Below, in pieces: positions 1 to 50,126 of a stretch of 64,000 nt of DNA. The stretch comes from a virus. The stretch lies in the UHGV virus genome UHGV-1579991; one strand, 5' to 3'. Each line of letters starts with the position of its first letter. Position 1 is the first letter of the stretch. The notes under the pieces were generated by a model. It saw only the letters and a list, made by a program, of their open reading frames with translations. It did not search any database and had not been told where the DNA came from. Both the position numbers and the translations under genes were made by a program.

Positions 1-180
1 ACAACTCCACTTGCGCACAATGTATCAATCACTGAACAATGTTCTTAGCATCAATGAGGTCGCCAAATTGTGCTGAGGTGGGCGACAACTCCACTTGCGC
101 ACAATGTATCAATCACTGAACAATGTTCTTAGCATCAATGAGGTCGCCAAATTGTGCTGAGGTGGGTGATGACTCCACTT
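1..180. repeat. tandem direct repeat, 84-bp unit, about 2.1 copies (1-84; 85-168 with one mismatch; partial copy 169-180)
   Basis: Read directly from the sequence. The window starts inside the array, so further copies may lie upstream. Confidence 0.85.
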
Positions 181-197
181 ACAAATAACACAAAAAT

Positions 198-223
198 GCT
201 CCACTGAGAAATCTCAGTGGAGC
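198..223 (-). terminator. rho-independent terminator-like hairpin (11-bp stem, 4-nt loop) downstream of the gene ending at 251
   Basis: gctccactgag/aaat/ctcagtggagc; on the minus strand it is followed by a T-rich run (complement of caaaaat). Confidence 0.6.
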
Positions 224-250
224 ATTGCTTATATGTGAAGCATCTGTCAG

Positions 251-773
251 TTAGCTGACTTTCTTTGCATTCTTAAGTATGATTGATACGATATCACTAT
301 TGTTAACTTTGACAGATGGGTTTGACATTGGCAATGTAAACTTATCACCAACACCCAATGGATACTGCCATGCCATAGAAGTTAACAGTATAGGATTGCC
401 ACCAGGGCTTGTGCTGTTGATGTTGGCATACGCATTGATGTTGTAAATATTGCCGGTGCCACGGCCATCTGCTGCATAACAGCCAAAGCCAATTTTTGCA
501 GCAAAGTTTGAGTAGTCATAAGCTTTTGGCATCATTAACGCACCAATGGCGTAAGTTTCACCACCGCGGCATTCCATCATTTTGATAGGAAAGCCTGACG
601 TTGGTATGTTAACTGTCACATTGTCAAGCGATATTGTACCTTGTATCGCCATTGTTTCAGTAGTGCCAAAGTTGTACAATGAAGCATCACCAATAACAAG
701 CTGCAGGTAGACTAATTTAGAGCCCCCCCGCTAGCCCTTGTTGACGCTCAAACCAAAATTGTGGAGTTTTCAT
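251..773 (-). CDS. MKT-leader family protein A; leader and body are in different frames as sequenced (poly-G switch)
   Basis: Leader ORF MKTPQFWFERQQGLAGGL* (ATG at 773, stop 717-719). Body frame is open 251-730 with no ATG (track start is TTG at 679). Frames differ by +1 at the C7 run 723-729; one fewer G fuses leader to body. Paralogous leader at 2337. Confidence 0.5.
723..729 (-). repeat. homopolymeric tract, C7 on plus strand (G7 on coding strand), at leader/body junction of gene A
   Basis: Read directly from the sequence. Confidence 0.9.
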
Positions 774-832
774 ATGTTATATGTTTGAATGTTGTAAGAT
801 ATGTACATATTACATACAAAACTCCTCAAATT

Positions 833-1220
833 ATGAACAATACAATGAACTGGGGGGGGGACACAACAAGCCCTCCGAAGTAAGGCTGTGCAAGTAACAT
901 TTCTTGACTACAATGATGGCTATGAGACTTCATTTGAAACTATTGAAGTTCGTACAAACATGCGCACAATAGCAAATCTTATGAATGAATCTATGCCATT
1001 TGCACTAAAAGATAACGAATATGTCAAACAGTTTATCTTTGACATTTTCAATGGCAATGACAGCAGCAGTGTCGAAGTTACAATAACGTACAATGGCGAA
1101 ACAATATACACGGAAGACATACCGCCACAAGAAAGCTCGACATCATTACGTGCATATCTATCACTAAGACAAACAATCATAGGTGAAACGAATATGATTA
1201 GAGTTATTGAACACCTCTAA
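833..1220 (+). CDS. MNNTMNW-leader family protein B; leader and body are in different frames as sequenced (poly-G switch)
   Basis: Leader ORF MNNTMNWGGDTTSPPK* (ATG 833, stop 881-883). Body frame is open 849-1220 (track start is GTG at 888). Frames differ by +1 at the G9 run 852-860; one fewer G gives MNNTMNWGG-TQQALRSKAVQVTF... Confidence 0.5.
852..860 (+). repeat. homopolymeric tract G9 at leader/body junction of gene B
   Basis: Read directly from the sequence. Confidence 0.9.
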
Positions 1221-1231
1221 ACATCAAAAAA

Positions 1232-1259
1232 AACTCCGCTGAAATTTCTCAGTGGAGTT
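1232..1259. terminator. bidirectional terminator-like hairpin between convergent genes B (+) and C (-)
   Basis: About 11-bp stem with one G-T pair, flanked by an A8 run upstream and a T6 run downstream. Confidence 0.6.
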
Positions 1260-1276
1260 TTTTGATGTTGTAAATA

Positions 1277-1616
1277 TCAATCAATGTAATTGAATGCGAC
1301 ATTGAAATTGGTGCTACTAAGTTTACGACTCATCTCTGCAGGTGATGGCGTTACGCCCATTAGCTGAAATTTGCATTTCATAGTTGAGTCTACTATTGCA
1401 GTAACTGTGGCGCTGCCAGTGTATTGTTCAGAACCAACGCCACTGCTAAATAGCTTAACTAATTTAGTTGCAAGCTTATTGTTGACATCATAGTACGTAA
1501 TGTTTGCTGAGCCCTGCTTTGTTGAATTACATGTCACATTGTACTTAGCAGTCTTGTACGCCGGTCCAGCTTGGAGGGCTTGTTGTGCCCCCCCCCCAGT
1601 TCATTGTGTTGTTCAT
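1277..1616 (-). CDS. MNNTMNW-leader family protein C; leader and body are in different frames as sequenced (poly-G switch)
   Basis: Leader ORF MNNTMNWGGGTTSPPSWTGVQDC* (ATG 1616, stop 1545-1547). Body frame is open 1277-1600 (track start is GTG at 1537). C10 run 1588-1597; one fewer G gives MNNTMNWGG-AQQALQAGPAYKTAKYNV... About 70 nt of 5' UTR plus leader is nearly identical to gene B. Confidence 0.5.
1588..1597 (-). repeat. homopolymeric tract, C10 on plus strand (G10 on coding strand), at leader/body junction of gene C
   Basis: Read directly from the sequence. Confidence 0.9.
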
Positions 1617-1640
1617 GATTTGAGGAGTTTTATGTGAAAC

Positions 1641-2337
1641 TTACGCATATTTAAGTGAGTTTTGAATTTCATAGACATGTATCATGCTTGACGTACCTGC
1701 AACAATTGCACTAAACGCATTCATCAAAGGCGCCACATAGTCTGACGCAACAAACTGCCATGGTTCACATGCTTGCAATGTGCCAGCTACACTGCCGCCA
1801 ATCGTGAACGCAGAATTCAATCTATTTGACGCCAATACTGCAGTAGCAGTTATTAAGTTATCACTAATCATAACTTCTGCATTGACTGATACTCGTCTTG
1901 TGAGATTTACAGAAGTTTCAATAGTGCCTGACAAAGAACCTGCACGTGAATTTGATATTGTCAATCTTGCAGAGTATAAGTCGGGGAAGTCTATATTCAA
2001 TGTCGTCCTGTTGCCATAAATGATAGTGAAACTATTTGATATTAGTGATGCATCAGCTTCGTTATTTGCATCAAGCAACGCAAAACTGTGCGGTCTTGTA
2101 GTATCACCAGCAAGTTCTTTGTATTTATTGCCACGTAGCACGAATGTCAAAGAGCCGTCTTCGAATGTAACGAAGTTTGCATTGTAGACATTACCAGTGT
2201 CTTCACAATATAGCCAAACTGGCAAGCCGCATACAGCATGGTCTGCGTTATCTGTAGCATACAATGTGATAATAGTGTCACGAAGAGCCCCCCGCGATTG
2301 ACTGCTGGCGTTCAAACCAGAGTTGAGTAGTTTTCAT
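1641..2337 (-). CDS. MKT-leader family protein D; leader and body are in different frames as sequenced (poly-G switch)
   Basis: Leader ORF MKTTQLWFERQQSIAGGSS* (ATG 2337, stop 2278-2280). Body frame is open 1641-2333 with no ATG (track start is TTG at 2315). C6 run 2288-2293; one fewer G gives ...QQSIAG-ALRDTIITLY... Confidence 0.5.
2288..2293 (-). repeat. homopolymeric tract, C6 on plus strand (G6 on coding strand), at leader/body junction of gene D
   Basis: Read directly from the sequence. Confidence 0.9.
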
Positions 2338-2406
2338 AAGCGAAAAGACTTTTGTATGTGAAATTTATTGACATATTATATATCATGCTGCACTACGCAC
2401 AAAAAG

Positions 2407-2459: not shown

Positions 2460-3074
2460 CTATGATACAGTCCACGGGCAGTTTGCAGTAACCGTAACCG
2501 TAACAGCAGGAGTACCGGCCTGAGGAATCGTGATTTCCTGCTTGTCGAGTACCAGCGTCGGGTCACCAGCAGCCTGAACGATTGCAATCTGAGCAGTCTG
2601 AGCACCGTTGGCAGTTACCAAAATCGATGTCGTACGCTCGTCAATCGTCAAGTTGGCGGGAATATCAAGCTCAATGCTGAACGCAAACTCAGCGCTAGCA
2701 CCAGGGTCACCTGTAATTGCGACGCCATTGCCGGTTTCTGCACCAGCAACTGCGTACTTTGCAGGCAGCTCAATAACGAACTCGCCACCATCAACGATGC
2801 TGAATGCCAGCTTCGATGAGTTAGATACACCAGTTACGGTAAGAGTACCACCAGCCTTGGGAGCTGACATCTCTGAGCCGTTGTCAAATGACACGAACTC
2901 AGCCTTTGCAGTCTGCTGTACATTGTACGTTGAAGGCGCTGCAATACCAGCACCCTGAACGGTTACAACACCAGTACGTGCAACACGACCAGTGTGGGCG
3001 TCAGCAGAGTTGGAAATTGAACCATTACCCGAACCAGACGTCGGGGACAGTTTCAACCATGCGGGTTTAGCCAT
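2460..3074 (-). CDS. protein with Ig/BACON-like N-terminal domain (paralog 1 of 3), 204 aa
   Basis: N-terminus MAKPAWLKLSPTSGSGNGS...AHTGR is shared with the next two genes; the pattern resembles BACON/Ig-like domains (motif-level only). Confidence 0.7.
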   Translation of the reverse strand: MAKPAWLKLSPTSGSGNGSISNSADAHTGRVARTGVVTVQGAGIAAPSTYNVQQTAKAEFVSFDNGSEMSAPKAGGTLTVTGVSNSSKLAFSIVDGGEFVIELPAKYAVAGAETGNGVAITGDPGASAEFAFSIELDIPANLTIDERTTSILVTANGAQTAQIAIVQAAGDPTLVLDKQEITIPQAGTPAVTVTVTANCPWTVS

Positions 3075-3131
3075 TGTTCAAAATTGTTTATTAAGTGAGT
3101 GTATATGTTACAAAAATTCGATGATTGCTCA

Positions 3132-3731
3132 TCAAAGAATTTTCCAAGAAGCGTTTGATGTCAAATTCATTGTGATTGTCGTGCCATCATCATCAACTGT
3201 TACAGATTCTGTACTCAGCACAAGAGTTGCTGCAGCAGCTGCTTGAGTAATGCTAACATTCAATGATTTGCCACCAGGAGTTGTCACAGTCAATACAAAT
3301 GATTTCTGTTCAATTGTCAAATTTTGCGGCACTGTAACTTCAATTGACCAAGCAAACTTTGCAATATATCCTGGGTCATTTGCAATTGCAGCATCATTTG
3401 TTGCAGCAGTGCCATTTGCAGTGTACGCAGTCGGAATGTTAAGATTCGGATTTGCAGTTGCAAATTTTAGCTTTGCTGCATTAGACTCACCAGAAACGAC
3501 AATTTTTGTGGTGGCTGCAGTCACATTGTATGATGCTGTGCCAGATACAAATTCTGCAAGAGCAGCTTGGTTGATTGTTGCTTGCTTTGTAACTGTTGGT
3601 GTGGTCTTCGTTTGCACAGTCGCAATTGTGCTACGAATGCCTCTGCCGGTATGAGCTCCTGCAGTAAATGCCAGGATGTCATTGCCCTCACCAGACATCG
3701 GTGAACACTGTGCCCATATAGCTTTTGCCAT
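3132..3731 (-). CDS. protein with Ig/BACON-like N-terminal domain (paralog 2 of 3), 199 aa
   Basis: N-terminus MAKAIWAQCSPMSGEGND...AHTGR; C-terminus is Thr/Ala-rich and variable. Confidence 0.7.
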   Translation of the reverse strand: MAKAIWAQCSPMSGEGNDILAFTAGAHTGRGIRSTIATVQTKTTPTVTKQATINQAALAEFVSGTASYNVTAATTKIVVSGESNAAKLKFATANPNLNIPTAYTANGTAATNDAAIANDPGYIAKFAWSIEVTVPQNLTIEQKSFVLTVTTPGGKSLNVSITQAAAAATLVLSTESVTVDDDGTTITMNLTSNASWKIL

Positions 3732-3802
3732 TGTTACTGTGCAATTTTTAATTGTTTGACATATTATTTATATGCATTGCTTAAGCAATGTTGAATTGAC
3801 AT

Positions 3803-6800
3803 TTATCGAACAAGGAATGACGTACCAACAACCATATTTGGGATTGCCAAGCCATTGCCAGACTGGCTTACTGCAACTGTGCCACTTGTGTAACCTGACA
3901 ATGCTGCAGTAATTGTTGCCGACCTGCTGTTATCTGAACCCCAGTTATTTGCAGCGGACAATGTCGAACCACTGATTGTGAATGCGCCATTGTTCGATGA
4001 GTACGTTGGAGTAACCGCAGCATCTGATGTTGCAGACTGACCTGTCGTGTATGTTGTGACGGTTCGACCTGTCGTAGACAATGTTGCAGTGCCACCAGCA
4101 GCTCCAAAGCTTGTAACAGTTGAGCTAACAATCAGTGTCTTCGTAGTAGAAGTCACACTGTTGGCTTCCTGTGTAGCAGTGATTGCTTTTGAGCCAGTTT
4201 GACCATTCAACGCAACCGTCATATTGACTGTTGCAGTTCTTGCAGAACCAGCTGTTGTGCCACGATTTGCAGCAGTCAATGAACCTGTTGTACTACTGTT
4301 AAGTGTAAAGCCAGTAGTTGCAGCCATACTGTATGAAATCGTACCACCAGACGTAATAGTGGTTTTTGAACCACTTGTGTACGTTGCTGTCTGCGAATAT
4401 GCTGGCGTGCCTGTTGGAGTCTTTGTTGCACCTGCTGCAGCAAATGTTGCATATGATGTTGCTGTAGTAACTGTGACTGCACTGTATGATACACTGTTAG
4501 CTGCTTGATAAACATCAAGAGCTTTTGTAGCAGTCTTAGACCCTTCACCAGTAGCAGTTGCAGTCAAAGTGCCAATCTTTGTACGAGCTTTGACTGTAGT
4601 GCCAAGCGATGATGCGCTGACTTTTGTGCTATACGTAATGCTAACTGAGCCTGCCCTTGTGCTGCCAGACGTATATGTAATTGTCTGTGATGCACTGATG
4701 CCAGACATTGATGCGACTTCACCACCGCCAGCAGGAATATCTGATACAGAACCACCAGAGATTGTTACTGCGCCATATGTCGTAATTGCATTTGCAGCTT
4801 GGTACACATCTACTGCTTTTGTTCCAGATTTGCCATTGACTGTTACAGTAACAGTAGATGTTGTAATCTTTGTGCGAACTTTAGCAGTAGTGCCAAGCGA
4901 ACTACCAGACACTGCGCCAGTAGACGTTGTTACACCAGTGCCAGACCATGATTTGCTACCACCAGATGTAACTGTCTGTGTTGAGCCACTTGACCAAGTA
5001 ACTGACTGACTGAATGACACTGTAGGCGTAACTGAACCACCACCTGCAGGAATATCGCCATAAGTCATCGAAACTGTTGGCGTGCCATATGTAGCAGCAT
5101 TAGCATTTTGAGATGCAGTAGCAGTCTTTGTTCCACTGATAGTCTTTGTGCCTGCTGCGTTGTATGATGCAGTTGGCGTCCATGTAGCCTTTACAGTCTT
5201 TGTAACTGTTGGCGATGTAGTTGCGCCACTTGCAGTAGTGCCCTTTGATGATGCTGTTATAGCACCAGTAGATGCATTGAGTGCAGTGAACAATCCTGAT
5301 GCGCCTGGCCAGCTATATGATGTTGTAGTTGACAATGAACCATACGTAGATGCTGGCGCAGTAGTTGAAGTACTGCCACTACTAAAGTGGTATGTTACTG
5401 TGTTTGCACCATTTGACGGTGTAGATGTTCCGCCGCCTGCAGCAATTGCAGGATATGACATCGAACCAACTGCAATATTGAGTGCAGTCACATAGTTGCC
5501 TGCCTGATAAATCGTGGCAGACTTGCTGGCAGATTTGCCGTTCATTGTGACTTTAACAGTCAGTGTACCTGCAGTAGTCTGGTTAGATATTGTAGTACCC
5601 TTTGATTGCACAGTGACTGTCGATGTATACTCAATTGTTCCGCCGCTTGTCAGTGTTTCTGTCGTCTTTTCACCAGTAGCATATGTCGTAGTTTTGACCT
5701 GCGAGTAAGTTACTGTGCCAGATTTTACAGAACCGCCGCTTGCTGCAATGATAGTTGCAGACGGTGTCAAGTTAACTGTGATATCGCTATATGTAACTGT
5801 GCCGGCAGATTGAGCTGCTTGATAAACATCTGCAGCTTTTGATGCAGACTTACCATTGAGTGCTACTGTGACAGTCAATGTGCCAATCTTTGTTCGTGGC
5901 TTAACTGTTGTGCCAAGTGATGATGCAGTGATACCTGCTGCTGGACTGTATGAAATTGTTGCACCAGTAGTGATGTTCTGTGTTGAAGTTGATGTGTATG
6001 TTGCAGTCTGCGAATATGACACATTGCCGCTCTTAATTGTACCACCAGTTACAGGAATATCTGCTACAGTGAAGCTTGAAATTGTAACTGCGCCATATGA
6101 CACAGTGTTTGCAGCTTGCTTGACTGTGCAAGAACCAGTTTTTGTAACACCGCCCTCAGTGTATGAGCCGGAAATTGTAATGCTGCGTTCTGCGCCTACG
6201 ACTGTTGTGCGATTTGCTGCAGTTACTGTAGTAGTCGACAATGTAAAGCCAGTTGCTGAACCGCTAAGTGTTGCAGATACTGCAGCAGATGACGTTGAGC
6301 CTGATGCATATGTGTATGACGCTGTTGAAGTGATTGTAGTTGAACCGCCACCAGCTGCCAATGTTGCAGCGCCAGGTGTCAATGTCAAGCCATTCAGCGT
6401 CTTTGAGTTTGCAGTTTGTGTTGCAGTAGCAGTTTTTGTAGCAGATTTGCCATTGATTGCTACCGTAACTGTGACAGCATTTGAAGCATCAGTAGAGCCT
6501 ACATATGATGTGCCCATTGACGTTACAGTCAATGCGCCACTTGTTGTATTCAATGTCCAGCGTGACTTAGCAGTCATTGCATAAGACAATGTAGCGCCAC
6601 TTGTCAATGTGCCACCTGAGCCAGCTACACCATTCCAAGTCCAAACTTGTGAATATGAAACAGTTGGATTTGATGTACCACCAGCCGGAGCAATATTTGC
6701 ATATGAGAATGTTCCAATGACAGGCGTTTCATAGACTTTAACGCCTGCAGCTTGGTTGAACGTAATATCTTTTGATGCAGACTTGCCATTTGCAGTGACT

Positions 6801-8131
6801 GTCAAGGTAACAACAAATCCATTACGTGCAGCAGTAGAATTGTTGTTTGTCACTGTGACATTCAAGCCAGATAAGCTATAGCCTGTTACAGCAGTTTTAA
6901 CCACAGCAGTCCATGTGCCACCTGATGCATTACTATCAGTCGAGCCACTGCTATATGTCATTGACTGCGTAAATGTTGCAGATGCATTGACTGCAACAGT
7001 TTGACCTGCTACTGCAAGAGCAACTGGTGTTGTCTTTGTAATGACTGGCGTACCATACGTAATGCTGTTAGCAGCTTGTGTAATCGATACAGTAGCAGTT
7101 GCATTGCCATATGACGCTGTGCCACTAAATGACCGAGCATCACCGACAGTCTTGCCACGATTTGCAGATGTTACAGAATTTGCAGATATCGTAAATCCTG
7201 TTGCTGTGCCTGTAATTGTTGGCTTGACATTTGTTTCAGTAGATGTAACAACACCGTTCCATGTCACAGTGTACGTACCAGTGATGGTTGATGTTCCACC
7301 TGCTGCAGTATGACTTGTTGAATATGTGTTCAAAGCAAGCTTGTACACAACTGAACCAGCTGCTTGCGAGCATTTAACAGTCTTCGACAAACTATGACCA
7401 CTTACAGTCAATGTGGGCGTAACTGCTGCAGTTGATGCGTTGTTTGGCGTGTTAACTGTAATTGTTGCAGGACCTGTGCCAGATGCTTTTGAGACTGACC
7501 AACCTGCAGGTACACCCGAAATTGTCCATGCAAAGTCAGGATTACAAGAAATTGCGAATGTCTTCGATTCACCTTTTGCAACAAATGACAAAGTTTCTGG
7601 TGATACTGCCAATGTTGCACTTGCACCAGCTTGATTTACAGTGAATGTTGCAGATTTGCCACCAGGCGTTGACAATGTGAAAGTGAATGCCTTTGCAGCG
7701 ATTGCAGTATGTGCAGCAATCTGCACTCGTACAATGACTTCAAATTCTGCATTGACACCAGGGTCATTGTCAAAGTTTGTGTTGAGCGCATAATATTTGC
7801 CTGCAACAGTCACGCCAAGCACTGTGCCACTTGCAGTGCCGCCAGTACTGCCAAGCACAAGTTTTTGTGCATTTGTGACACATTTCAATGTTGCAATAGT
7901 GCCACCATTTGACGCAATGTTTGTAGATGCAACTGTAGCTCGTATAGTTTCACCAGGAGACTCTTGCAATACTGCACAGTTTTCAGTTACTACTGGTGAA
8001 CCTGTAGTTGTTTGTGCAGTAAAGCTGCCAGACCTGTTGTTTCGACCAGTATGCACAAATGCTTTGACAGACAACTGCGAGTTGCCTGTGCCAACATCAG
8101 GTGTAACTGTCAACCAAGTAGGCTTTGCCAT
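3803..8131 (-). CDS. large Thr/Ser/Gly-rich multi-repeat Ig-like protein (paralog 3 of 3), 1442 aa; likely virion surface, fibre or adhesin
   Basis: N-terminus MAKPTWLTVTPDVGTGNS...HTGR, followed by more than 10 repeats each ending in a x-Q-A-A-N type motif (VYQAAN, ITQAAN, VKQAAN, ATQTAN, TFNQAAG). Confidence 0.8.
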   Translation of the reverse strand: MAKPTWLTVTPDVGTGNSQLSVKAFVHTGRNNRSGSFTAQTTTGSPVVTENCAVLQESPGETIRATVASTNIASNGGTIATLKCVTNAQKLVLGSTGGTASGTVLGVTVAGKYYALNTNFDNDPGVNAEFEVIVRVQIAAHTAIAAKAFTFTLSTPGGKSATFTVNQAGASATLAVSPETLSFVAKGESKTFAISCNPDFAWTISGVPAGWSVSKASGTGPATITVNTPNNASTAAVTPTLTVSGHSLSKTVKCSQAAGSVVYKLALNTYSTSHTAAGGTSTITGTYTVTWNGVVTSTETNVKPTITGTATGFTISANSVTSANRGKTVGDARSFSGTASYGNATATVSITQAANSITYGTPVITKTTPVALAVAGQTVAVNASATFTQSMTYSSGSTDSNASGGTWTAVVKTAVTGYSLSGLNVTVTNNNSTAARNGFVVTLTVTANGKSASKDITFNQAAGVKVYETPVIGTFSYANIAPAGGTSNPTVSYSQVWTWNGVAGSGGTLTSGATLSYAMTAKSRWTLNTTSGALTVTSMGTSYVGSTDASNAVTVTVAINGKSATKTATATQTANSKTLNGLTLTPGAATLAAGGGSTTITSTASYTYASGSTSSAAVSATLSGSATGFTLSTTTVTAANRTTVVGAERSITISGSYTEGGVTKTGSCTVKQAANTVSYGAVTISSFTVADIPVTGGTIKSGNVSYSQTATYTSTSTQNITTGATISYSPAAGITASSLGTTVKPRTKIGTLTVTVALNGKSASKAADVYQAAQSAGTVTYSDITVNLTPSATIIAASGGSVKSGTVTYSQVKTTTYATGEKTTETLTSGGTIEYTSTVTVQSKGTTISNQTTAGTLTVKVTMNGKSASKSATIYQAGNYVTALNIAVGSMSYPAIAAGGGTSTPSNGANTVTYHFSSGSTSTTAPASTYGSLSTTTSYSWPGASGLFTALNASTGAITASSKGTTASGATTSPTVTKTVKATWTPTASYNAAGTKTISGTKTATASQNANAATYGTPTVSMTYGDIPAGGGSVTPTVSFSQSVTWSSGSTQTVTSGGSKSWSGTGVTTSTGAVSGSSLGTTAKVRTKITTSTVTVTVNGKSGTKAVDVYQAANAITTYGAVTISGGSVSDIPAGGGEVASMSGISASQTITYTSGSTRAGSVSITYSTKVSASSLGTTVKARTKIGTLTATATGEGSKTATKALDVYQAANSVSYSAVTVTTATSYATFAAAGATKTPTGTPAYSQTATYTSGSKTTITSGGTISYSMAATTGFTLNSSTTGSLTAANRGTTAGSARTATVNMTVALNGQTGSKAITATQEANSVTSTTKTLIVSSTVTSFGAAGGTATLSTTGRTVTTYTTGQSATSDAAVTPTYSSNNGAFTISGSTLSAANNWGSDNSRSATITAALSGYTSGTVAVSQSGNGLAIPNMVVGTSFLVR

Positions 8132-18208: not shown

Positions 18209-19105
18209 TTACAGTGTTCCGCAAAGCAATTCACGTAAATCCATGCCAGCTTGTGTACTATACTGAGCAATAAGATTACGTTCTGAATCAGACATGCTCC
18301 AATAAATCTTATGCTGAGCTCTACGAATAATAGTATGAATGCCAGATGTGCTACAATTGAACTTCTTTGCAAGTTCTGCATGAGTTAGCAAATCAGCATC
18401 ACCAAGGCCATACACATGTGTGAGTACAAGCTTTTCATTTTGAGTGAGTTGTTCAAATGCTCTTTGCAGAATCTTTGTGTTGCGTTTGTGAGCATCCTCG
18501 ATTTCAAGAACTTCTTGGCCTGTTTTGAAGTCTGACCTCAAATCATTCTGAACTGGTGACCATGCATCACCATCTTTGTCAAGTGTAGTGTCATCCTTGC
18601 TGGTGAATTGTTTGCCTTCAAGAGCTCTTTCATATGCTCCACGAATGCCAGTAGATAATTGTTGACTTGTCAAATTGAGTTCATCAAGTACATATTTCTT
18701 AATCCAAGGATATGCATATGTGCTAAACTTTGCTTCACGAACTCCTGCAGGCAATACGCCTTCTACATAATTCTTGGCTGCTATTGACAATCCAAGATTG
18801 CCTGCTTGAATGACATCATCCAGCGGAACTGAGCGTTTGCCAGATGCGAACCATAAGCTTCGTGCAACTGATATGACCAGTCTTAAGCAAGATTTGATAA
18901 GAGCTTCACGATTTTCTTGAGTCTTCTTGAATCGAGTAACATCACAATATCGCTTTGCAGTAGCCAGCGATTTGACTTCTTCAGGAGTAAGCTCATTCTC
19001 CATCCTCATTTGCTTGAGCTCCTCCTTTGTGTATAGACGTTCTCTTGTTATTCTACCTACGTCCTTTACGTAGCCTTGATTGATTTGTGAATTTGAACCT
19101 GCCAT
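18209..19105 (-). CDS. sigma-70 family RNA polymerase sigma factor, 298 aa
   Basis: Region-2-like FSTYAYPWIKKYV and region-4-like HTH (LTHAELAKKFNCSTSGIHTIIRRAQHKI). Confidence 0.65.
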   Translation of the reverse strand: MAGSNSQINQGYVKDVGRITRERLYTKEELKQMRMENELTPEEVKSLATAKRYCDVTRFKKTQENREALIKSCLRLVISVARSLWFASGKRSVPLDDVIQAGNLGLSIAAKNYVEGVLPAGVREAKFSTYAYPWIKKYVLDELNLTSQQLSTGIRGAYERALEGKQFTSKDDTTLDKDGDAWSPVQNDLRSDFKTGQEVLEIEDAHKRNTKILQRAFEQLTQNEKLVLTHVYGLGDADLLTHAELAKKFNCSTSGIHTIIRRAQHKIYWSMSDSERNLIAQYSTQAGMDLRELLCGTL

Positions 19106-19208: not shown

Positions 19209-20267
19209 TTATGAACATTTTGTTAACAATGCATGACCACAATCATAAACTGCAACATAGCCAGTGTTAAGCATCTCTTGCTCATCTTGGCCGGCGTCTA
19301 CAATATGTTCTTTGCTGTTAAGTTTGACCCAGTGCTTGCAGATTGTTGACTTATCATCTGACAATTTAGGGTTAATGCAGAAGTCTGTTGAGCTTATTGT
19401 GTTGTCGAGATGCTGTTTGATGATATTGACAACTTGTTCAGGCGTCATCCAATCAAACACTGTTATGCAAGTGTAGCCATGCTTGAGGGCAAGCTGAGTT
19501 TTGTTGAAGTGATAGTCGAATGGGAGCGCATAGTTATGCTTAGACTTGCCAATTGCATATGCATAGCCATACGTAGAGTTGTGACTGATTGTTGGGCAAA
19601 TTTCAATCAGCAAATGCTTATAATGCAGGTCATATGACTGGCGTTCAATATTGACGTCATCACAGTCAAATGCAAGCCCAAGTTCTTGTAGCAGCAAAGT
19701 TTGCCATCGTTTGTTTGTAGCTGATATGACATTTTTGTGAGCATTGCGACATTTTTGATGCATACAAAAGAATGGGACACCATATTTTTGCTGCATCAAT
19801 TTAGTGTCAATGCCTGCTGCATTGCCATAACGTTCAAGCTTCGTTGCTCTAATTTTGTCAGCATCACCCCAAATGTTGCCATATCGTTTGCGCTTTGTGT
19901 CTTGAGACTTCTTAATGTTGCCACTGCGGTTGCCATAAATAAGTTCCTTTGATTGACACGCATGTTCAGCAGCATCTGGCCCATATATGTGACCGTATTT
20001 TTGAAGCTTAATTTCATTGATACGTTCTACTGGGCCATTTGGATGACCATAGCGTTCTTGTTTGATGCGTTTTGTGTGCTCAATTGTTGACTTTAATGCA
20101 AGCTTTGACGTAACGCCAAATTTGCGCAAACAGCCTATTCTAATATTGAAACTACGTTTAATATGCGATGCTTCTATTTTTGTAACAGCCAATTGCAATG
20201 CAGCATCACGTTCAGTTTCAAGCATGCAAATTTGTTCATCAATTGTCATAGCATCAAACCATTTCAT
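19209..20267 (-). CDS. repeat-rich (RYG-x-G) putative free-standing homing endonuclease or DNA-binding protein, paralog 1
   Basis: Tandem roughly 18-aa (R/K)YG repeats and a conserved C-terminal domain (LIEICPTISHNSTYGYAYAIGKSK) shared with 35445-36719 and 48935-50126. Confidence 0.7.
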   Translation of the reverse strand: MKWFDAMTIDEQICMLETERDAALQLAVTKIEASHIKRSFNIRIGCLRKFGVTSKLALKSTIEHTKRIKQERYGHPNGPVERINEIKLQKYGHIYGPDAAEHACQSKELIYGNRSGNIKKSQDTKRKRYGNIWGDADKIRATKLERYGNAAGIDTKLMQQKYGVPFFCMHQKCRNAHKNVISATNKRWQTLLLQELGLAFDCDDVNIERQSYDLHYKHLLIEICPTISHNSTYGYAYAIGKSKHNYALPFDYHFNKTQLALKHGYTCITVFDWMTPEQVVNIIKQHLDNTISSTDFCINPKLSDDKSTICKHWVKLNSKEHIVDAGQDEQEMLNTGYVAVYDCGHALLTKCS

Positions 20268-35444: not shown

Positions 35445-36719
35445 TTATATATTTGACAGCTGTTTGCGTTGCAAAATTGCATGACCGCAGTCATATACTG
35501 CAACATAACCTGCATCAATCATCTCTTGCTCATTTTGTCCGCAGTCTTCAATATGTTCTTTTGTCTTTAAATGACACCAGTGTTTGCGAATTGTTGACTT
35601 GTCATCTGACAGTTGCGGATTAAGTGCGAAGTTAGTTGAGTCTACTGGTTCACCTGCAAGATGCTTTCGAATGACATCAATGACTTCATTGTCATCCATC
35701 CATTCGAATATTGTAATGCAAGTGTAGCCAAGCTTAAGAGCAAGCTGAGTTTTGTCGAAGTGATAGAATTTGCTAACATGCTTATTGTGTGTAGTACGGC
35801 CAATTAAATATGCAAAACCATATGTTGAATTGTGTGACCAAGTTGGATTGATTTCAATCAATAATTTGCAATGTTCATTACTGTAATTGAGGTCATATGA
35901 CCATCGCTCAAGATTGACATCATCAAGCCCACAATCAATCCCAAGTTCTTGCAGCAATTTGTCATGCCACCAATGGTTTGCTCGTGATTTTACATGACCT
36001 TGAGCATCACGACATTTAGCAGTCATACAAAAATATGGGACACCATAGCGTTGCATGTTAGTTGACGCAATTTTTTGCAAATCGCCTGCAGCAGACCCAT
36101 ATTTTTGTCGTTTTGTTGCAACTGCTACTGCAATATTGCCAAATTTGTTGCCATATCGTTTCTGTTTAGTTTCAAGTGCTTTGTCAATATTTATGATGCC
36201 TCTTGTACCATGTTCTTTTTCACGTTTAGCTAAAATTGTTTGCATGTCGCCAAGTTTGTTGCCATATCGTTGCAATTTAGTTTCATGCATTTTTGCAATA
36301 TTTGTCCAACTATCACCATAATGTTGTCTATGTGTTGCAGCGCAACGTGCTTTGTCACCAAACATGTGTCCAAACTTTGCTAAACGACGCTCAACAAATT
36401 TTTGCATGTCACCCATGCCATTACCATATCGTTTCTGCTTAGTTGCAACAGCCTTTTGCATATTGACACCTCGATAGCCATAACGCATTTCTATTGTTGT
36501 AGTAATTTTATCACTGATGACTTTTGATTGCTGAGCATACTCAAAACCATATTTACGCAAGCAGCCAATTCGCTTATTATATTTCAAACGAATTTTACCA
36601 TGTGATGTCTTCTTTGGGCCATACCATTCATATGGCGTTTCTGCAATCAATTTATCACGTTCAGCTTCAAGTTCTTTTATTCGAGCTTCAAGAGCTTCAC
36701 CTATTAATTGTGTTGCCAT
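35445..36719 (-). CDS. repeat-rich (RYG-x-G) putative homing endonuclease or DNA-binding protein, paralog 2, 424 aa
   Basis: Same repeat architecture and C-terminal domain (LIEINPTWSHNSTYGFAYLIGR) as the gene at 19209-20267. Confidence 0.7.
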   Translation of the reverse strand: MATQLIGEALEARIKELEAERDKLIAETPYEWYGPKKTSHGKIRLKYNKRIGCLRKYGFEYAQQSKVISDKITTTIEMRYGYRGVNMQKAVATKQKRYGNGMGDMQKFVERRLAKFGHMFGDKARCAATHRQHYGDSWTNIAKMHETKLQRYGNKLGDMQTILAKREKEHGTRGIINIDKALETKQKRYGNKFGNIAVAVATKRQKYGSAAGDLQKIASTNMQRYGVPYFCMTAKCRDAQGHVKSRANHWWHDKLLQELGIDCGLDDVNLERWSYDLNYSNEHCKLLIEINPTWSHNSTYGFAYLIGRTTHNKHVSKFYHFDKTQLALKLGYTCITIFEWMDDNEVIDVIRKHLAGEPVDSTNFALNPQLSDDKSTIRKHWCHLKTKEHIEDCGQNEQEMIDAGYVAVYDCGHAILQRKQLSNI

Positions 36720-41869: not shown

Positions 41870-41894
41870 TGTATCAAATGTTTGTATTTGTAAG

Positions 41895-41970
41895 TTGTTT
41901 TGATGCAAAATGCAAAACAATATAAAATTGTTTTGATGCAAAATGCAAAACAATATAAAATTGTTTTGAT
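41895..41970. repeat. tandem direct repeat, 33-bp unit x about 2.3 (ttgttttgatgcaaaatgcaaaacaatataaaa)
   Basis: Read directly from the sequence; intergenic, upstream of the Cys-rich gene; each unit carries two TGCAAAA half-sites. Confidence 0.8.
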
Positions 41971-41972
41971 AT

Positions 41973-43877
41973 CTACAAAGATTTGAACAATTCCTCGTAT
42001 GTTACAATTTTCTTGCCTTTTGCAAGTGCTGCTTTCATTTTGTTCGACAGCTTGTTGACATCATTTGTGACAACATAGTCACATGCATCAATGTTTGCAC
42101 CGACATCTTCAAGCTTACCATTTGCTGCATCAATAAATGCACCTTTTGTTGCCCAAGTAGGCTTAGGCGAGCCTGTCATGACAACCTTGATTGTGTTAGC
42201 ATGCGCAGATGCTTCTTTATGCATTTCATTGAACATCACGAAGCATTGTGGAAAGCGCTTGAGTAATCTTTGTATGACATTCAACTTTATGAGCCTGTCA
42301 ATTGGCTCCATGCTCAAGCCCTTAAAGTCATACTGGCAATTGCTAAAGTACGCAGACAACTGATATGCAGCTTTACCACCGAGACCAGGAATCTGCATGC
42401 ATTCAATGAAATGCGACAAGTGAATGCTACTGAAGCGTTCACGTAAGCCTGCAATGACTGTACGGTCATTTTTGCTGTTTGTGTCAAACTGCAGCAGCTC
42501 AAACAGTCGTTCATTGTCAACTTCTTGCACAATGCAGAACAAGTCTTCAATTGTGGGCGCATCAGAGAATGTCAACATGACATCAAGATTGTCTTGTGCA
42601 ATAAGCAATGCTTCACAAATTTTCGTAGCATAAACCCAGCCAAGCCCATCAATATTAAGCTTGCAAACGCCTTTGATAAACCTCGTGCATCTTGCAAATT
42701 CCTCAGGCATCATCAAGTGAATGCCATCGACATATGCATGTACAGGAATGTCAGCTTTGCTGCTATCACCAGGTTCAATACATTCTTGAATGTCTGGAAT
42801 AATGTCACCGCCCTTTTCAATACGAACAAGAGCGCCTGGCCAAATACCATTTGCATGCAAAAAGCCATAGTGAAATGCTGAAGCTGCTTTTACTGTAGTG
42901 CCATCAAGCTCAACAGGCTCAAGTTCAACTCTCGGAAAAAGCTCACCATTGATTCGCTGACGCCAATCAATTCGAGTCACTCGAGTTACAGCAGACATTG
43001 CGTCAAGCTTCAATGCAACCATGTTTGCATATTCTGCTGCATTTGCAAACTGCTGCTCAATCCACAAGTCATCTGCAAAAGGCTTGACTACAATGCCATC
43101 AATGCGATATTTGAATTCTGAACGCCCATTGGCAATTTTTGTGCAAGTTTCTGCAAACTCATTGTAATCAGTGACTTCAAAGACTTCTGCAATGAATTCT
43201 GCAGGCCAGCCAACTTTAGCAAGAGCATCTGCAGGATTGGTTTGCTCATATGTTTTGCCATCAAGTGTGTCAGTCAGCATGTATGCCATAGGGTCAATGT
43301 CTTCCATGCCACACATGTCTAATGACTTCACAAATGCTGCAGCAGTATTGCGCTCATTTTTGTATTTGACAGAGCCATCAGCATTGAAATGATATTTTTG
43401 TGCAAAAATGTCTTTTGCAATGACAGCCTCAAAGCGAATTTGATATGGCTGTTCTGCTGCAGCAAGCTGCATCGGCACTTTGCCTGCTACAACAAATTTG
43501 CGCGTGACATCATAGCCCGTATAGCCATCACCACGAGTAACAACTTTTAGCAATCTGCCATCAGTGTCGTAATGTGCTTCACAGCCCATGCCATCATACT
43601 TGTGCATAAGCAGCATTTCATGACCAACAATGTTGCACACAGTATCATGCAACGCAGTTGTAAACTGTGACTTTGTATGAATTGCAGCAAGACTCAATGC
43701 AGGTGTAAGATGCTTAACTTCTTGTTTATTTGACTCTTCAAAGCGAATCTTATGTTTAATGTCGCTATTTGCAAGAAGCTGCTGTTCAAGAGCATCAAAT
43801 GCCTCATCAGACATTATCGGATTGCCTGCATAATACGCAGCTATTGCGTCATGGTACATATTGAGTGTATCAGTCAT
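41973..43877 (-). CDS. ligA: NAD-dependent DNA ligase-like protein, 634 aa
   Basis: N-terminal Ia-like segment (AYYAGNPIMSDEAFDALEQQL) and adenylation motif KYDG with downstream TRGDG; motif-level call. Confidence 0.65.
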   Translation of the reverse strand: MTDTLNMYHDAIAAYYAGNPIMSDEAFDALEQQLLANSDIKHKIRFEESNKQEVKHLTPALSLAAIHTKSQFTTALHDTVCNIVGHEMLLMHKYDGMGCEAHYDTDGRLLKVVTRGDGYTGYDVTRKFVVAGKVPMQLAAAEQPYQIRFEAVIAKDIFAQKYHFNADGSVKYKNERNTAAAFVKSLDMCGMEDIDPMAYMLTDTLDGKTYEQTNPADALAKVGWPAEFIAEVFEVTDYNEFAETCTKIANGRSEFKYRIDGIVVKPFADDLWIEQQFANAAEYANMVALKLDAMSAVTRVTRIDWRQRINGELFPRVELEPVELDGTTVKAASAFHYGFLHANGIWPGALVRIEKGGDIIPDIQECIEPGDSSKADIPVHAYVDGIHLMMPEEFARCTRFIKGVCKLNIDGLGWVYATKICEALLIAQDNLDVMLTFSDAPTIEDLFCIVQEVDNERLFELLQFDTNSKNDRTVIAGLRERFSSIHLSHFIECMQIPGLGGKAAYQLSAYFSNCQYDFKGLSMEPIDRLIKLNVIQRLLKRFPQCFVMFNEMHKEASAHANTIKVVMTGSPKPTWATKGAFIDAANGKLEDVGANIDACDYVVTNDVNKLSNKMKAALAKGKKIVTYEELFKSL

Positions 43878-48934: not shown

Positions 48935-50126
48935 TCATTTTTGCACAGCATGGCCGCAATCGTACACAGGCACATAACCAGCGTCAAGCATTTGTTGTTC
49001 ATCTACTTCTGCAGTATGCGCAGCATACAGTCGCTTCTTGTAATTCCACCAATGTTTTCTAATAGTCAATTTGTCATTGCATATGACAGGATTTTTTGAC
49101 AAGTCTGTGCTATCTACACGTTCATTGCATAAATGCTGTCGTATGATTTCTACAACGTCATCAGGGTTATCCCAATCCCATATTGTAATGCATATGTAGC
49201 CTGCTGTAAGTGCTGCTTGAGTTTTTCTAAAATGTCTATCATTAGGAATTGGCAAATTGCGTTTAGATTTGCCAATTGCATATGCAAAGCCAAATGCAGC
49301 ATTATGTGAAAACGATGGGTTGATTTCTATTAGTAGATGCTTATAATGCAAATCATAAGAAAATCTGCCAATATTGACATCATCAAATGTGCAATCAATG
49401 TTAAGTCGTTGCAGCAAAAAATCATGCCACCAACGATTAACCGTTGTAATGGTGCGCCCATTAGCATGCCGACAACGCTCAGTCATAACAAACCAAGGTA
49501 CACCATAGCGTTCAAGATTTGTTTGCATGCGTTTTGCAGTGCCACCATATTCATCACCGTATCGTAATCTGCGTGTATGAACTGCTTTTAATGGGTTGCC
49601 AGCAGAATTGCCATATCGTAGCATCTTTGTTTGCTGCGCTTTAGCAGTAATTACACCATGGTCAGGATAGTGTTCGCGTATTGTTTGCTGCACTTTAGTA
49701 GCATTCCATGTGCGATAGCCGTACTTGTGTAATTTTGTTTGCTGGGCTTTTTGCATGTTGTTATAATATGGGTCGCCATAGCGTTCTTCTTTAATTTTGC
49801 ACATTAACTGTTGGTCGCCAAATGCATTGCCATATTTTGCAAGTTTTGTTGCCTTAAATTTAGTCATGTCGCCAAGCCCATTGCCATATCTTTCTCGTTT
49901 TGTTGCGACACCTTTGTTTGTAAATTCTTTTTAATTGCGCAGTGTTTTCAACACCATATTTACGCAAATTGCTTATACGACTGTTATATGTACGTTTGCA
50001 AATTGTGTATTGTGAGTAGCGTTTATGCTGAGGTCGTTCTTTAGACGCAGTTTGCAATATCACATCTCTTTCCTCTTCAAGTTCTTTTATGCGAGCTTCA
50101 AGAGCTTCTCCAGTTAATGGTTCCAT
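48935..50126 (-). pseudogene. repeat-rich (RYG-x-G) homing-endonuclease-like gene, paralog 3, split by a frameshift
   Basis: Two overlapping ORFs (49860-50126 and 48935-49867); homology to paralog 2 continues across a T5 run at about 49928-49932 only if one base is removed. Confidence 0.6.

What the first reader, a model, noticed from the sequence alone, without database searches (positions are those of the whole stretch)
805..1640. Leaders of genes B and C form a roughly 70-bp inverted repeat flanking an 0.7-kb segment
About 70 nt spanning 5' UTR, leader, G-tract and the next 20 nt are nearly identical between gene B (plus strand, about 810-880) and gene C (minus strand, about 1570-1640), so the two copies are inverted with respect to each other and bracket both variable bodies and a shared bidirectional terminator. 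This geometry could allow inversion by homologous recombination and swapping of bodies between promoters. It may equally be plain duplication-divergence of a leader module.
Basis: inference. Interest (0 to 1): 0.35.

Follow-up and report, generated by a model that had tools for sequence, protein, structure and literature searches.

The report
Phase-variable phage gene cassettes with inverted leaders
The inverted repeat is real: it is the shared start region, including a slippage-prone run of Gs, of two facing genes from a small family of on/off-switchable genes in a large gut phage, and a related phage carries the segment between the two copies flipped.

Summary
Observation confirmed. Arms 799-876 and 1573-1650 match at 67/78 positions (56/60 in the core), about 4e-18 expected by chance. 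They bracket two convergent bodies and a bidirectional terminator.

Each arm is a complete 5' module: 5'UTR, ATG, leader MNNTMNW, a polyG tract (G9 or G10), and 15 more bases. The only four G/C runs of 6 or more in 64 kb sit at this position in four adjacent genes, A to D.

In about 12 related assemblies, tract length is the main and sometimes the only difference. Gene A has G7 or G8, D' has G6 or G7, and Q has G9, G10 or G11. All three frame states occur, and the bodies show dN/dS of 0.1-0.5. This fits slipped-strand phase variation.

The inversion idea has comparative support. In contig L008 the B-C segment is flipped relative to A and D, with breakpoints inside the arms. L008's arms are 58/58 identical, which points to gene conversion. 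Leaders also swap exactly at the tract, and the whole cassette array appears in both orientations.

No recombinase was found. Both arms carry their own start, so inversion is probably a by-product of recombination and not a switch. It is a new variant of a known kind.

The parts
799..876 (+). Left inverted-repeat arm. It is gene B's 5' expression module: 5'UTR, ATG at 833, leader MNNTMNW, G9 tract, and 16 nt after the tract.
   Evidence: (I1)
1573..1650 (-). Right inverted-repeat arm. It is gene C's 5' expression module: 5'UTR, ATG at 1616-1614, leader MNNTMNW, G10 tract, and 15 nt after the tract.
   Evidence: (I1)
852..860 (+). PolyG tract of gene B. It reads G9 then A, equivalent in length to the G10 of L008. 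The body is out of frame by one extra base.
833..883 (+). Gene B leader ORF as assembled (MNNTMNWGGDTTSPPK, then stop).
861..1220 (+). Gene B body ORF, 119 codons in the +1 frame relative to the leader. It is an orphan protein. dN/dS is 0.46 against the L008 copy.
1228..1263 (.). Bidirectional intrinsic terminator shared by the convergent genes B and C.
   Evidence: (I15)
1277..1587 (-). Gene C body ORF, 102 codons plus stop, in the +1 frame relative to the leader. It is an orphan protein.
1588..1597 (-). PolyG tract of gene C (C10 on the plus strand).
1545..1616 (-). Gene C leader ORF as assembled (MNNTMNWGGGTTSPPSWTGVQDC, then stop).
251..773 (-). Gene A, a cassette of the same family with a type-1 leader (MKTPQFWFERQQGLAGG). 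Its polyG is C7 at 723-729 and the body is in the +1 frame. The tract is G8 in another sample. In a relative the same body carries a type-2 leader and is in frame.
1641..2337 (-). Gene D, a cassette with a type-1 leader (MKTTQLWFERQQSIAGG). Its polyG is C6 at 2288-2293 and the body is in the +1 frame. That frame is also in phase with a conserved TTG at 2315.
2269..2385 (-). D-type promoter/leader/polyG module, about 117 nt. In relatives a second, inverted copy bounds the far side of the cassette array. This module is the breakpoint of the whole-array orientation difference between the window and L009/L012.
1..190 (-). 84-nt tandem repeats at the edge of the cassette array. Each unit carries the conserved N-terminal motif (ELSPTSAQFGDLID) of the neighbouring E-type gene family. 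They are the left boundary of the block shared at 100% identity with L009.
   Evidence: (D1)

Best explanation
The inverted repeat consists of two copies of one 5' expression module. Each copy holds a 5'UTR, a start codon, the 7-residue leader MNNTMNW, a polyG tract and 5 shared codons. The copies head two unrelated, convergently transcribed small genes, B and C.

B and C belong to a family of at least eight cassette genes in a roughly 175-180 kb tailed phage from human gut metagenomes. The family lies next to BACON-domain and tail-fibre-like genes. Every cassette is built as module, polyG tract, variable body.

1. Expression control (inferred). Slipped-strand mispairing in the polyG tract during replication changes its length. 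This moves the body in or out of frame with the leader ATG, so each cassette is switched on or off independently and stochastically, as in a contingency locus. In the window all four cassettes are one G too long and therefore off, with the possible exception of D.

2. The inverted repeat itself. Because the module is nearly identical in the two genes, it is a substrate for general homologous recombination.
- Between inverted copies, recombination flips the segment in between. This is seen for B-C between lineages.
- It also homogenises the arms by gene conversion.
- Between direct copies, or between polyG tracts alone, it deletes the intervening DNA and fuses a different leader to a body. This is seen for gene A.

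Both arms are complete start modules, so flipping B-C leaves both bodies with an equivalent 5' end. It exchanges only the upstream promoter context, and the tract too if the crossover is 3' of it. The inversion is therefore most likely a tolerated by-product of recombination and not a switch. Paralogues that share a module may survive mainly in inverted orientation because direct repeats would delete each other.
For: Shown by tools:
- The inverted repeat and its module content.
- The only four G/C homopolymers of 6 or more in 64 kb all lie 19-44 nt after the ATG of the four adjacent cassettes.
- The leader ORF and body ORF are offset by +1 in all four cassettes.

Tract length varies between otherwise near-identical assemblies:
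- Gene A is G7 in the window and L009 but G8 in L010 and L011. This is the sole difference over 2183 nt and 1464 nt.
- D' is G6 or G7.
- Q is G9, G10 or G11.
- F is G7, G8 or G10.
- D'' is G5 (in frame), G7 or G11AG.

All three frame states occur, including in-frame ones: 152288 gene A, 152288 gene Q and L025 gene D''.

The bodies are under purifying selection in the body frame, with dN/dS 0.09-0.5 for A, B, D', D'' and Q.

Recombination:
- In L008 the B-C segment is flipped relative to A and D, with the breakpoint inside the arms.
- L008's arms are 58/58 identical, against 67/78 in the window.
- In 152288 a type-2 leader is joined to the A body exactly at the tract.
- The D-type module is found with both flank types for the D body and for the D' body.
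- A second convergent pair, E2/E3 in L012, has a 189-nt perfect inverted repeat.
- No recombinase was found among the window ORFs scanned or in the flank genes of relatives.

Precedent: polyG phase variation of phage receptor-binding proteins (Sorensen et al. 2021, Cell Rep 35:109214; the reference is listed in PMC12823448 and PMC10877375).
Against: - No reads were available, so neither tract-length heterogeneity nor both B-C orientations within one population are shown. All evidence is between assemblies.
- B and C themselves show no net tract-length change between the two lineages that carry them (G9A against G10, and G10 against G10).
- All four window cassettes are off by the same offset.
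- Type-1-leader genes are in frame with their ATG in only 1 of about 19 gene-assembly observations. That is fewer than the one third expected from neutral slippage. It hints at selection for off states or at an unrecognised expression route, such as the TTG start or ribosomal or transcriptional slippage.
- D'' keeps the same out-of-frame state despite a 6-nt tract change.
- The function and virion location of the proteins are unknown. Pfam, PHROGs and PDB gave no hits, and AlphaFold gave pLDDT 47 and 54.
- The whole-array orientation difference rests on a 117-nt identical repeat that short-read assemblers could mis-join.
- Only 64 kb of about 180 kb was scanned for recombinases.
Confidence: 0.68

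Rival explanations
1. Programmed, recombinase-driven DNA inversion switch, like the Mu G or P1 C segment or a shufflon. On this view the arms are recombination sites, and flipping 877-1572 changes which body is expressed.
For: - Inverted repeats bracket two convergent alternative bodies, which is the geometry of the Mu G segment.
- Both orientations exist among related genomes.
- The same geometry recurs for E2/E3 and for the whole array.
- Contigs often break in this region.
- Some programmed inversions lack a nearby recombinase (PMC9881135, introduction).
Against: - Each arm has its own 5'UTR, ATG and leader, so both bodies have a start in both orientations. There is no single fixed expression site outside the segment.
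- No serine or tyrosine recombinase was found among the scanned ORFs of the 64 kb window or in the roughly 9 kb flank of relatives.
- The arms differ between cassette pairs (B/C, D/D', E2/E3) and share no common core site.
- The orientation difference is seen only between lineages 5-11% diverged, not within a sample.
Confidence: 0.1
2. The G runs are programmed recoding sites. The out-of-frame state is the normal genotype, and full-length protein is made by ribosomal frameshifting or by RNA-polymerase slippage on the G run, not by changes in DNA tract length.
For: - All four window cassettes need the same +1 shift.
- Gene A is G7 and off by 1 in four assemblies from three lineages, yet has dN/dS of about 0.1.
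- D'' keeps the same offset after a 6-nt change.
- Type-1 genes are almost never in frame.
- G GGG GGG in D'/D'' is in the phase of a -1 slippery heptamer (read directly from the sequence).
Against: - The required shift is not constant. It is +1 for gene A at G7, -1 for gene A at G8 and for D'/D'' at G7, and 0 for several genes.
- The same gene occurs in different offsets in near-identical genomes. This is what DNA-level slippage predicts and what a single tuned recoding signal does not.
- No stimulatory structure was identified.
Confidence: 0.15
3. The cassettes are decaying duplicates (pseudogenes) or carry homopolymer assembly errors, and the inverted repeat is a relic of an old inverted duplication with no present role.
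For: - Most copies are out of frame.
- L008's gene C has an extra 2-nt insertion that breaks the body.
- F has only 29 codons after the tract.
- B and C have no homologues outside this lineage.
Against: - dN/dS is 0.1-0.5 in the body frames.
- The frame breaks are confined to the polyG tract.
- The modules are conserved or homogenised (58/58 in L008, 189/189 for E2/E3) while the bodies diverge.
- Identical tract calls come from independent assemblers for the same sample (L010 and L011).
- G6-G8 runs are within Illumina accuracy.
Confidence: 0.05

Closest known systems
Hypermutable polyG tracts in receptor-binding-protein genes of Campylobacter Fletchervirus phages (Sorensen et al. 2021, Cell Rep 35:109214)
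   Same: Both are phage-encoded G runs of about 7-11 inside the 5' part of several genes near the tail or host-recognition module. Length changes put the ORF in or out of frame, and several independent tracts occur per genome.
   Different: - There is no sequence homology.
- The host here is probably Bacteroidota (inferred from BACON domains and a lipoprotein signal), not Campylobacter.
- Here the tract sits at the junction between a shared promoter/leader module and unrelated bodies, and it also marks recombination joints.
- The proteins' role as receptor binders is not shown here.
- Details of that paper are from my memory of its abstract. Only the reference itself was seen.
Invertible tail-fibre segments of phages Mu (G segment/Gin) and P1 (C segment/Cin), and plasmid shufflons (Rci)
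   Same: Inverted repeats bracket convergent alternative coding segments in a host-range region, and both orientations are found.
   Different: - Those systems have a dedicated recombinase next to the segment and short specific crossover sites.
- They have one constant 5' gene part with its promoter outside the segment, so only one variant is expressed at a time.
- Here each arm is itself a full start module and no recombinase was found, so inversion should not change which body is expressed.
Bacterial contingency multigene families with a conserved 5' leader carrying a slippage-prone repeat, for example Neisseria opa (CTCTT repeats in the signal-peptide region) or Campylobacter/Haemophilus polyG genes
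   Same: - A conserved 5' module is joined to variable bodies.
- A repeat in the leader coding region sets the reading frame.
- Each copy switches independently.
- Recombination and gene conversion occur between copies.
   Different: The family here is encoded by a virulent-looking large phage and not by a bacterium. It uses a homopolymer instead of a pentamer, the leaders are 7-17 residues long with no recognisable signal peptide, and the copies are clustered in one array of about 4-7 kb. This comparison is from general knowledge and was not tested here.

Membership tests
Phase-variable (contingency) gene by homopolymer slipped-strand mispairing | A homopolymeric tract, typically 7 or more G/C, lies inside the 5' coding region. 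| tested here: met
   G9 lies at 852-860, 19 nt after the ATG of B. C10 lies at 1588-1597, 19 nt after the ATG of C. These are two of only four G/C runs of 6 or more in 64 kb.
Phase-variable (contingency) gene by homopolymer slipped-strand mispairing | A change of tract length by a non-multiple of 3 joins or separates the start codon and the long ORF. | tested here: met
   The leader ORFs stop 7-16 codons after the tract. The bodies are open in the +1 frame from the tract onward, so one G fewer fuses them.
Phase-variable (contingency) gene by homopolymer slipped-strand mispairing | Tract length is polymorphic among closely related genomes while the flanks are conserved. | tested here: met
   - Met for the family: gene A is G7 or G8 as the sole difference in 2.2 kb.
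- D' is G6 or G7, Q is G9, G10 or G11, F is G7, G8 or G10, and D'' is G5, G7 or G11.
- For B and C themselves only G9A against G10, and G10 against G10, were seen, in two lineages. This is inconclusive for these two genes.
Phase-variable (contingency) gene by homopolymer slipped-strand mispairing | Reversible, high-frequency on/off switching occurs within a clonal population. | not testable with these tools
   This needs reads or cultures. Only consensus assemblies were available.
Programmed site-specific inversion system (Mu G/Gin, P1 C/Cin, shufflon/Rci type) | Inverted repeats flank the invertible segment. | tested here: met
   Arms 799-876 and 1573-1650 match at 67/78. The L008 arms are 58/58.
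Programmed site-specific inversion system (Mu G/Gin, P1 C/Cin, shufflon/Rci type) | A dedicated serine or tyrosine invertase is encoded in or next to the segment. | tested here: not met
   - No recombinase or integrase family was hit among 43 window ORFs scanned with Pfam or PHROGs.
- None appears among the precomputed Pfam hits of the flank genes in L009, L017, L020 and L025.
- Limit: only about 75 kb of a roughly 180 kb genome was seen.
Programmed site-specific inversion system (Mu G/Gin, P1 C/Cin, shufflon/Rci type) | A single fixed promoter and constant 5' gene part lies outside the segment, so inversion changes which variable part is expressed. | tested here: not met
   Both arms contain their own 5'UTR, ATG and leader. 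After inversion each body still follows a near-identical start module.
Programmed site-specific inversion system (Mu G/Gin, P1 C/Cin, shufflon/Rci type) | Both orientations coexist in one population. | not testable with these tools
   The two orientations were seen only in different lineages. One is in the window, L009, L010 and L011; the other is in L008.

The most novel reading that the evidence does not exclude
In this gut phage the polyG tracts would have two roles. They act as on/off slippage switches, and they also act as the joints at which promoter/leader modules and bodies are exchanged.
- The A body occurs with two unrelated leaders, fused exactly at the tract.
- The QQAL-type bodies also occur with two different leaders.
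- Nested inverted copies of the modules (B/C, E2/E3, D/D') would make the whole 4-7 kb host-interaction array a shuffling system that needs no dedicated recombinase.

Together these would give combinatorial, heritable and reversible diversity of virion-associated proteins in a phage of a host group (Bacteroidota) that is itself known for phase-variable surfaces.
Probability: 0.25. Interest if true: 0.7.

Novelty: new variant of a known kind. Interest (0 to 1): 0.5.

Why it matters
Phase variation encoded by phages themselves has been shown experimentally in essentially one system, the Campylobacter Fletchervirus phages. Here an uncultured phage of about 180 kb from human gut metagenomes carries a compact array of at least eight cassettes. 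Tract length is the main, and sometimes the only, difference between samples.

If the proteins are virion or host-recognition components, the array would let one phage genotype present many surface variants. That would bear on how gut phages persist alongside hosts with phase-variable capsules.

The locus also explains why assemblies of this phage break at this position. It gives a concrete, cheap test: counting tract lengths and junction-spanning reads in public runs.

For the inverted repeat itself the lesson is more modest. It is a footprint of a shared 5' module and of recombination between its copies. It is not evidence of a dedicated switch.

Tried and rejected
- GenBank phage BLAST of the locus and of 24 kb of the window found no match.
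- An IMG/VR scan with the exact type-2 leader found 0 hits. A scan with the post-tract QQAL motif found only the known L004. A scan of bacterial genomes for the type-1 leader found 0 hits, so there is no prophage or host clue.
- Pfam and PHROGs on frame-corrected A-D gave nothing above threshold. The same libraries on E-type proteins also gave nothing.
- Homologue searches for B and C returned only near-identical copies.
- An exhaustive HMMER search for D returned three weak relatives. One has a repeated beta-rich domain in a giant protein, which is not informative.
- AlphaFold on the B and C bodies gave pLDDT 47 and 54, too poor for fold search.
- PDB sequence searches for A, D and E1 found nothing significant.
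- A candidate shared promoter motif, TAATATGTCAAWMAATT, occurs upstream of D and of the second BACON gene, but it is not enriched in the window: 5 hits against 2.5 expected.
- The sigma-70 consensus scan was uninformative and missed the 1228-1263 terminator. Folding confirmed that terminator.
- Stop-codon recoding (TAG read as Gln) was considered as a way to open gene A in its G7 state. It was rejected because the window's long ORFs are intact under the standard code.
- A single programmed +1 frameshift was considered because all four window genes share one offset. It was rejected because relatives show all offsets.

Full report
**1. Observation**

The inverted repeat is real.
- The repeat finder reports arms 799-876 and 1573-1650: 78 nt, 86% complementary, 696 nt apart (I1).
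- A direct count gives 67/78 identities, and 56/60 in the core 817-876. About 4e-18 such pairs are expected by chance in 64 kb.
- Each arm holds about 33 nt of 5'UTR and an ATG (833 for B; 1616-1614 on the minus strand for C).
- It then holds the codons MNNTMNW and a G run (G9 at 852-860 for B; C10 at 1588-1597 for C).
- The last 15-16 nt are CACAACAAGCCCTCC.
- Between the arms lie two unrelated convergent ORFs and a hairpin at 1228-1263 with U-runs on both strands. It folds at -26.8 and -23.2 kcal/mol, z = -8.8 and -7.8, so it is a bidirectional terminator.

**2.

In both genes the ORF that starts at the ATG stops shortly after the G run (TAA 881-883 for B; TAA 1547-1545 for C). The long body ORF is open from the G run onward in the +1 frame.

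The same holds for the two neighbouring genes.
- Gene A (251-773, minus strand) has leader MKTPQFWFERQQGLAGG and C7 at 723-729.
- Gene D (1641-2337, minus strand) has leader MKTTQLWFERQQSIAGG and C6 at 2288-2293.

These four runs are the only G/C homopolymers of 6 or more in the whole 64 kb. The locus is therefore a cluster of four cassettes, each built as promoter/5'UTR/leader module, polyG, variable body. There are two module types: A and D share one, B and C share the other. The reported inverted repeat is the type-2 module present twice in opposite orientation.

**3. Genomic context**

The window belongs to a large tailed phage. The cassettes sit directly beside three BACON-domain proteins (2460-8131).
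- The window also encodes a baseplate wedge protein, a tape measure protein and a terminase.
- Replication genes include an NAD ligase, a clamp loader and topoisomerase II.
- A sigma-70-like factor is present as well.

Nothing similar is in GenBank phages. Relatives are contigs of 175-181 kb from IMG/VR and ENA, with sample names from a human gut cohort. A Bacteroidota host is inferred from the BACON domains and from a Bacteroidetes-style lipoprotein signal in a relative. It is not shown.

**4. Relatives and tract polymorphism**

About a dozen assemblies carry cassettes of this family (L001-L025).

| Gene | Tract lengths seen |
|---|---|
| A | G7 (window, L009, L008, 149023); G8 (L010, L011, L025) |
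| D' | G6 or G7 |
| Q (leader MQIPRNW) | G9 (in frame), G10, G11 |
| F (leader MTFKLNW) | G7, G8, G10 |
| D'' | G5 (in frame with its ATG, L025), G7, G11AG |

- For gene A, L010 and L011 differ from the window over 2183 nt and 1464 nt only by this one base.
- All three frame states occur.
- The bodies evolve under purifying selection in the body frame, with dN/dS 0.09-0.5 for A, B, D', D'' and Q. They are therefore expressed genes and not debris.
- This is the signature of slipped-strand phase variation.
- Its phage precedent is the polyG tracts in Campylobacter Fletchervirus receptor-binding proteins (Sorensen et al. 2021, Cell Rep 35:109214; the reference was seen in PMC12823448 and PMC10877375, but the paper itself is not held).

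**5. Recombination at the modules**

- ENA contig L008 is 89-95% identical to the window and was assembled at k=141. It has the order D''(+) B(+) C(-) A(+).
- The window read in the same direction is D(+) C(+) B(-) A(+).
- In alignment A1 the outer part of the window's B arm, which is the A-proximal intergenic sequence, continues into L008's C arm. The bodies keep their identity. The exchange point lies between ATGAACAAT and CCCTCC, inside the arm.
- The arms share at most 58 nt of exact identity, which is too short to mislead a k=141 assembly.

(b) The arms are homogenised within a genome. They are 58/58 in L008 and 67/78 in the window. This indicates gene conversion.

(c) Leaders and bodies are exchanged exactly at the tract.
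- In IMG/VR contig 152288 the A body follows a type-2-like leader (MNITMNW) with G7, in frame. Its upstream sequence matches that of L008's B arm.
- This arrangement would result from a deletion between the direct polyG tracts of an L008-like order.
- The post-tract motif CACAACAAGCCCTCC occurs behind two different leaders, MNNTMNW and MQIPRNW.

(d) The whole array occurs in two orientations relative to its flanks.
- The D-type module is about 117 nt.
- BACON1 flank with the D body: the window.
- X-gene flank with the D body: L009, which is 100% identical to window 50-2385.
- BACON1 flank with the D' body: L012, L016, 149023 and 152288.
- X-gene flank with the D' body: L015.
- Caveat: a 117-nt identical inverted repeat can be mis-joined by short-read assemblers. 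This item needs reads before it can be trusted.

(e) The geometry recurs. In L012 two convergent E-type genes are bracketed by a 189-nt perfect inverted repeat.

**6. Mechanism**

- Shown: the module structure, the frame relations, the between-assembly tract polymorphism, the purifying selection, and the B-C orientation difference with breakpoints in the arms.
- Inferred: tract slippage switches each cassette on or off stochastically.
- Inferred: general homologous recombination (host or phage) between module copies causes inversion, conversion and deletion.

Both arms are complete start modules, so inverting 877-1572 leaves each body behind an equivalent 5' end. Only the promoter-distal context changes, plus the tract if the crossover is in the 15 nt 3' of it. 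I therefore read the inversion as a tolerated by-product. I read the inverted orientation as the arrangement that survives, because direct copies delete each other, as the 152288 deletion illustrates.

No invertase was found among the window ORFs scanned or in about 9 kb of flank in relatives. Only about 75 kb of roughly 180 kb was seen.

**7. Unresolved points**

- All four window cassettes are off by the same offset.
- Type-1-leader genes are in frame with their ATG in only 1 of about 19 gene-assembly observations. These are not independent.
- D'' keeps its offset after a 6-nt change.
- In the offset-1 state a conserved TTG (within TGGTTTGA) is in frame with the body. The frame is open for D at G6 but blocked by a TAG in gene A (read directly from the sequence).
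- These points leave room for selection for off states, for an alternative start, or for ribosomal or transcriptional slippage. A single programmed frameshift is unlikely, because the required shift differs between genes and between assemblies of the same gene.
- The function of the proteins is unknown. B and C are orphans and structure prediction failed.
- The neighbouring E-type family has distant members with a phage tail collar domain, PF07484. This suggests, but does not prove, a host-recognition region.

**8. Comparison and verdict**

The locus works like a contingency multigene family, with phage polyG phase variation as the nearest precedent. It does not meet two defining features of Mu G or shufflon-type programmed inversion: an adjacent recombinase, and a single external expression site.

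The inverted repeat is an ordinary consequence of a duplicated 5' module. The locus it belongs to is a new variant of a known kind: polyG-switched, module-shuffled cassettes in a large gut phage. Interest is 0.5.

Noticed in passing
window 1-190 (also L009 411-545): An 84-nt tandem repeat has two 99%-identical copies plus a partial third at the window start. L009 has about 1.5 copies. On the minus strand each unit encodes the conserved N-terminal motif ELSPTSAQFGDLID of the E-type gene that follows in L009. Several contigs (L010, L011) start inside it.
   Followed up: partly
L012 12269-14202 (also L021 8001-9775 and L025 2868-3784): A second cassette family, the E-type, has the pattern MAVQTRxVLKTYFETGDKPTxAQFGxLIDS ... 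LVNRAFYK. It has four genes arranged + + - -. The inner convergent pair is bracketed by a 189-nt perfect inverted repeat. The family has 66 clusters in the protein database, mostly on very short contigs, and distant members carry the phage tail collar domain PF07484.
   Followed up: partly
window 2269-2385, with L009, L012 and L015: The whole cassette block (window 50-2385) lies next to BACON1 in the window but next to unrelated 'X' genes in L009, which is 100% identical over 2336 nt. The reciprocal junction (X flank with the D' body) is in L015. This is either an inversion of the whole cassette array (at least about 6 kb; its full extent was not measured) between inverted 117-nt D-type modules, or assembler path choice at that repeat.
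   Followed up: partly
L002 (IMG/VR 152288, contig positions 68918-70014): A further D-type leader/polyG (G7) cassette with a different body (GALRAPDYIDVRF...) lies about 69 kb from the main array. It corresponds to a position just beyond the right end of this window.
   Followed up: no
L003 11442-11449 (minus strand): A G8 run lies in frame just after the lipoprotein signal (MIKKMICIAVCAWMCASCEKNDGGG...) of a gene of about 330 codons beside the cassette array in a relative. It may be another phase-variable gene.
   Followed up: no
window 18209-19105 (minus strand): This ORF has Sigma70_r2 and Sigma70_r4 domains, so it is a phage-encoded sigma factor. It may recognise the conserved upstream parts of the cassette modules.
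   Followed up: no
window 19230-19783, 35477-36059 and 48948-49433: Three ORFs (19209-20267, 35445-36719 and 48935-49867) share a C-terminal segment of about 190 residues at 65-88% DNA identity to one another's relatives. A further copy lies among the X genes of relatives (L001 2658-3240, L009 8125-8543).
   Followed up: no
window 41894-41977, against L004 704-875 and L005 1429-1511: An intergenic stretch upstream of the ligase gene resembles (75-85%) a short tandemly repeated sequence that lies upstream of the Q and F cassettes in relatives. It may be a shared promoter or regulatory repeat.
   Followed up: no
window 2362-2378 and 3750-3766 (minus strand): The 17-mer TAATATGTCAAWMAATT occurs at the same distance upstream of gene D and of the second BACON gene. 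It is not enriched window-wide (5 hits against 2.5 expected).
   Followed up: yes
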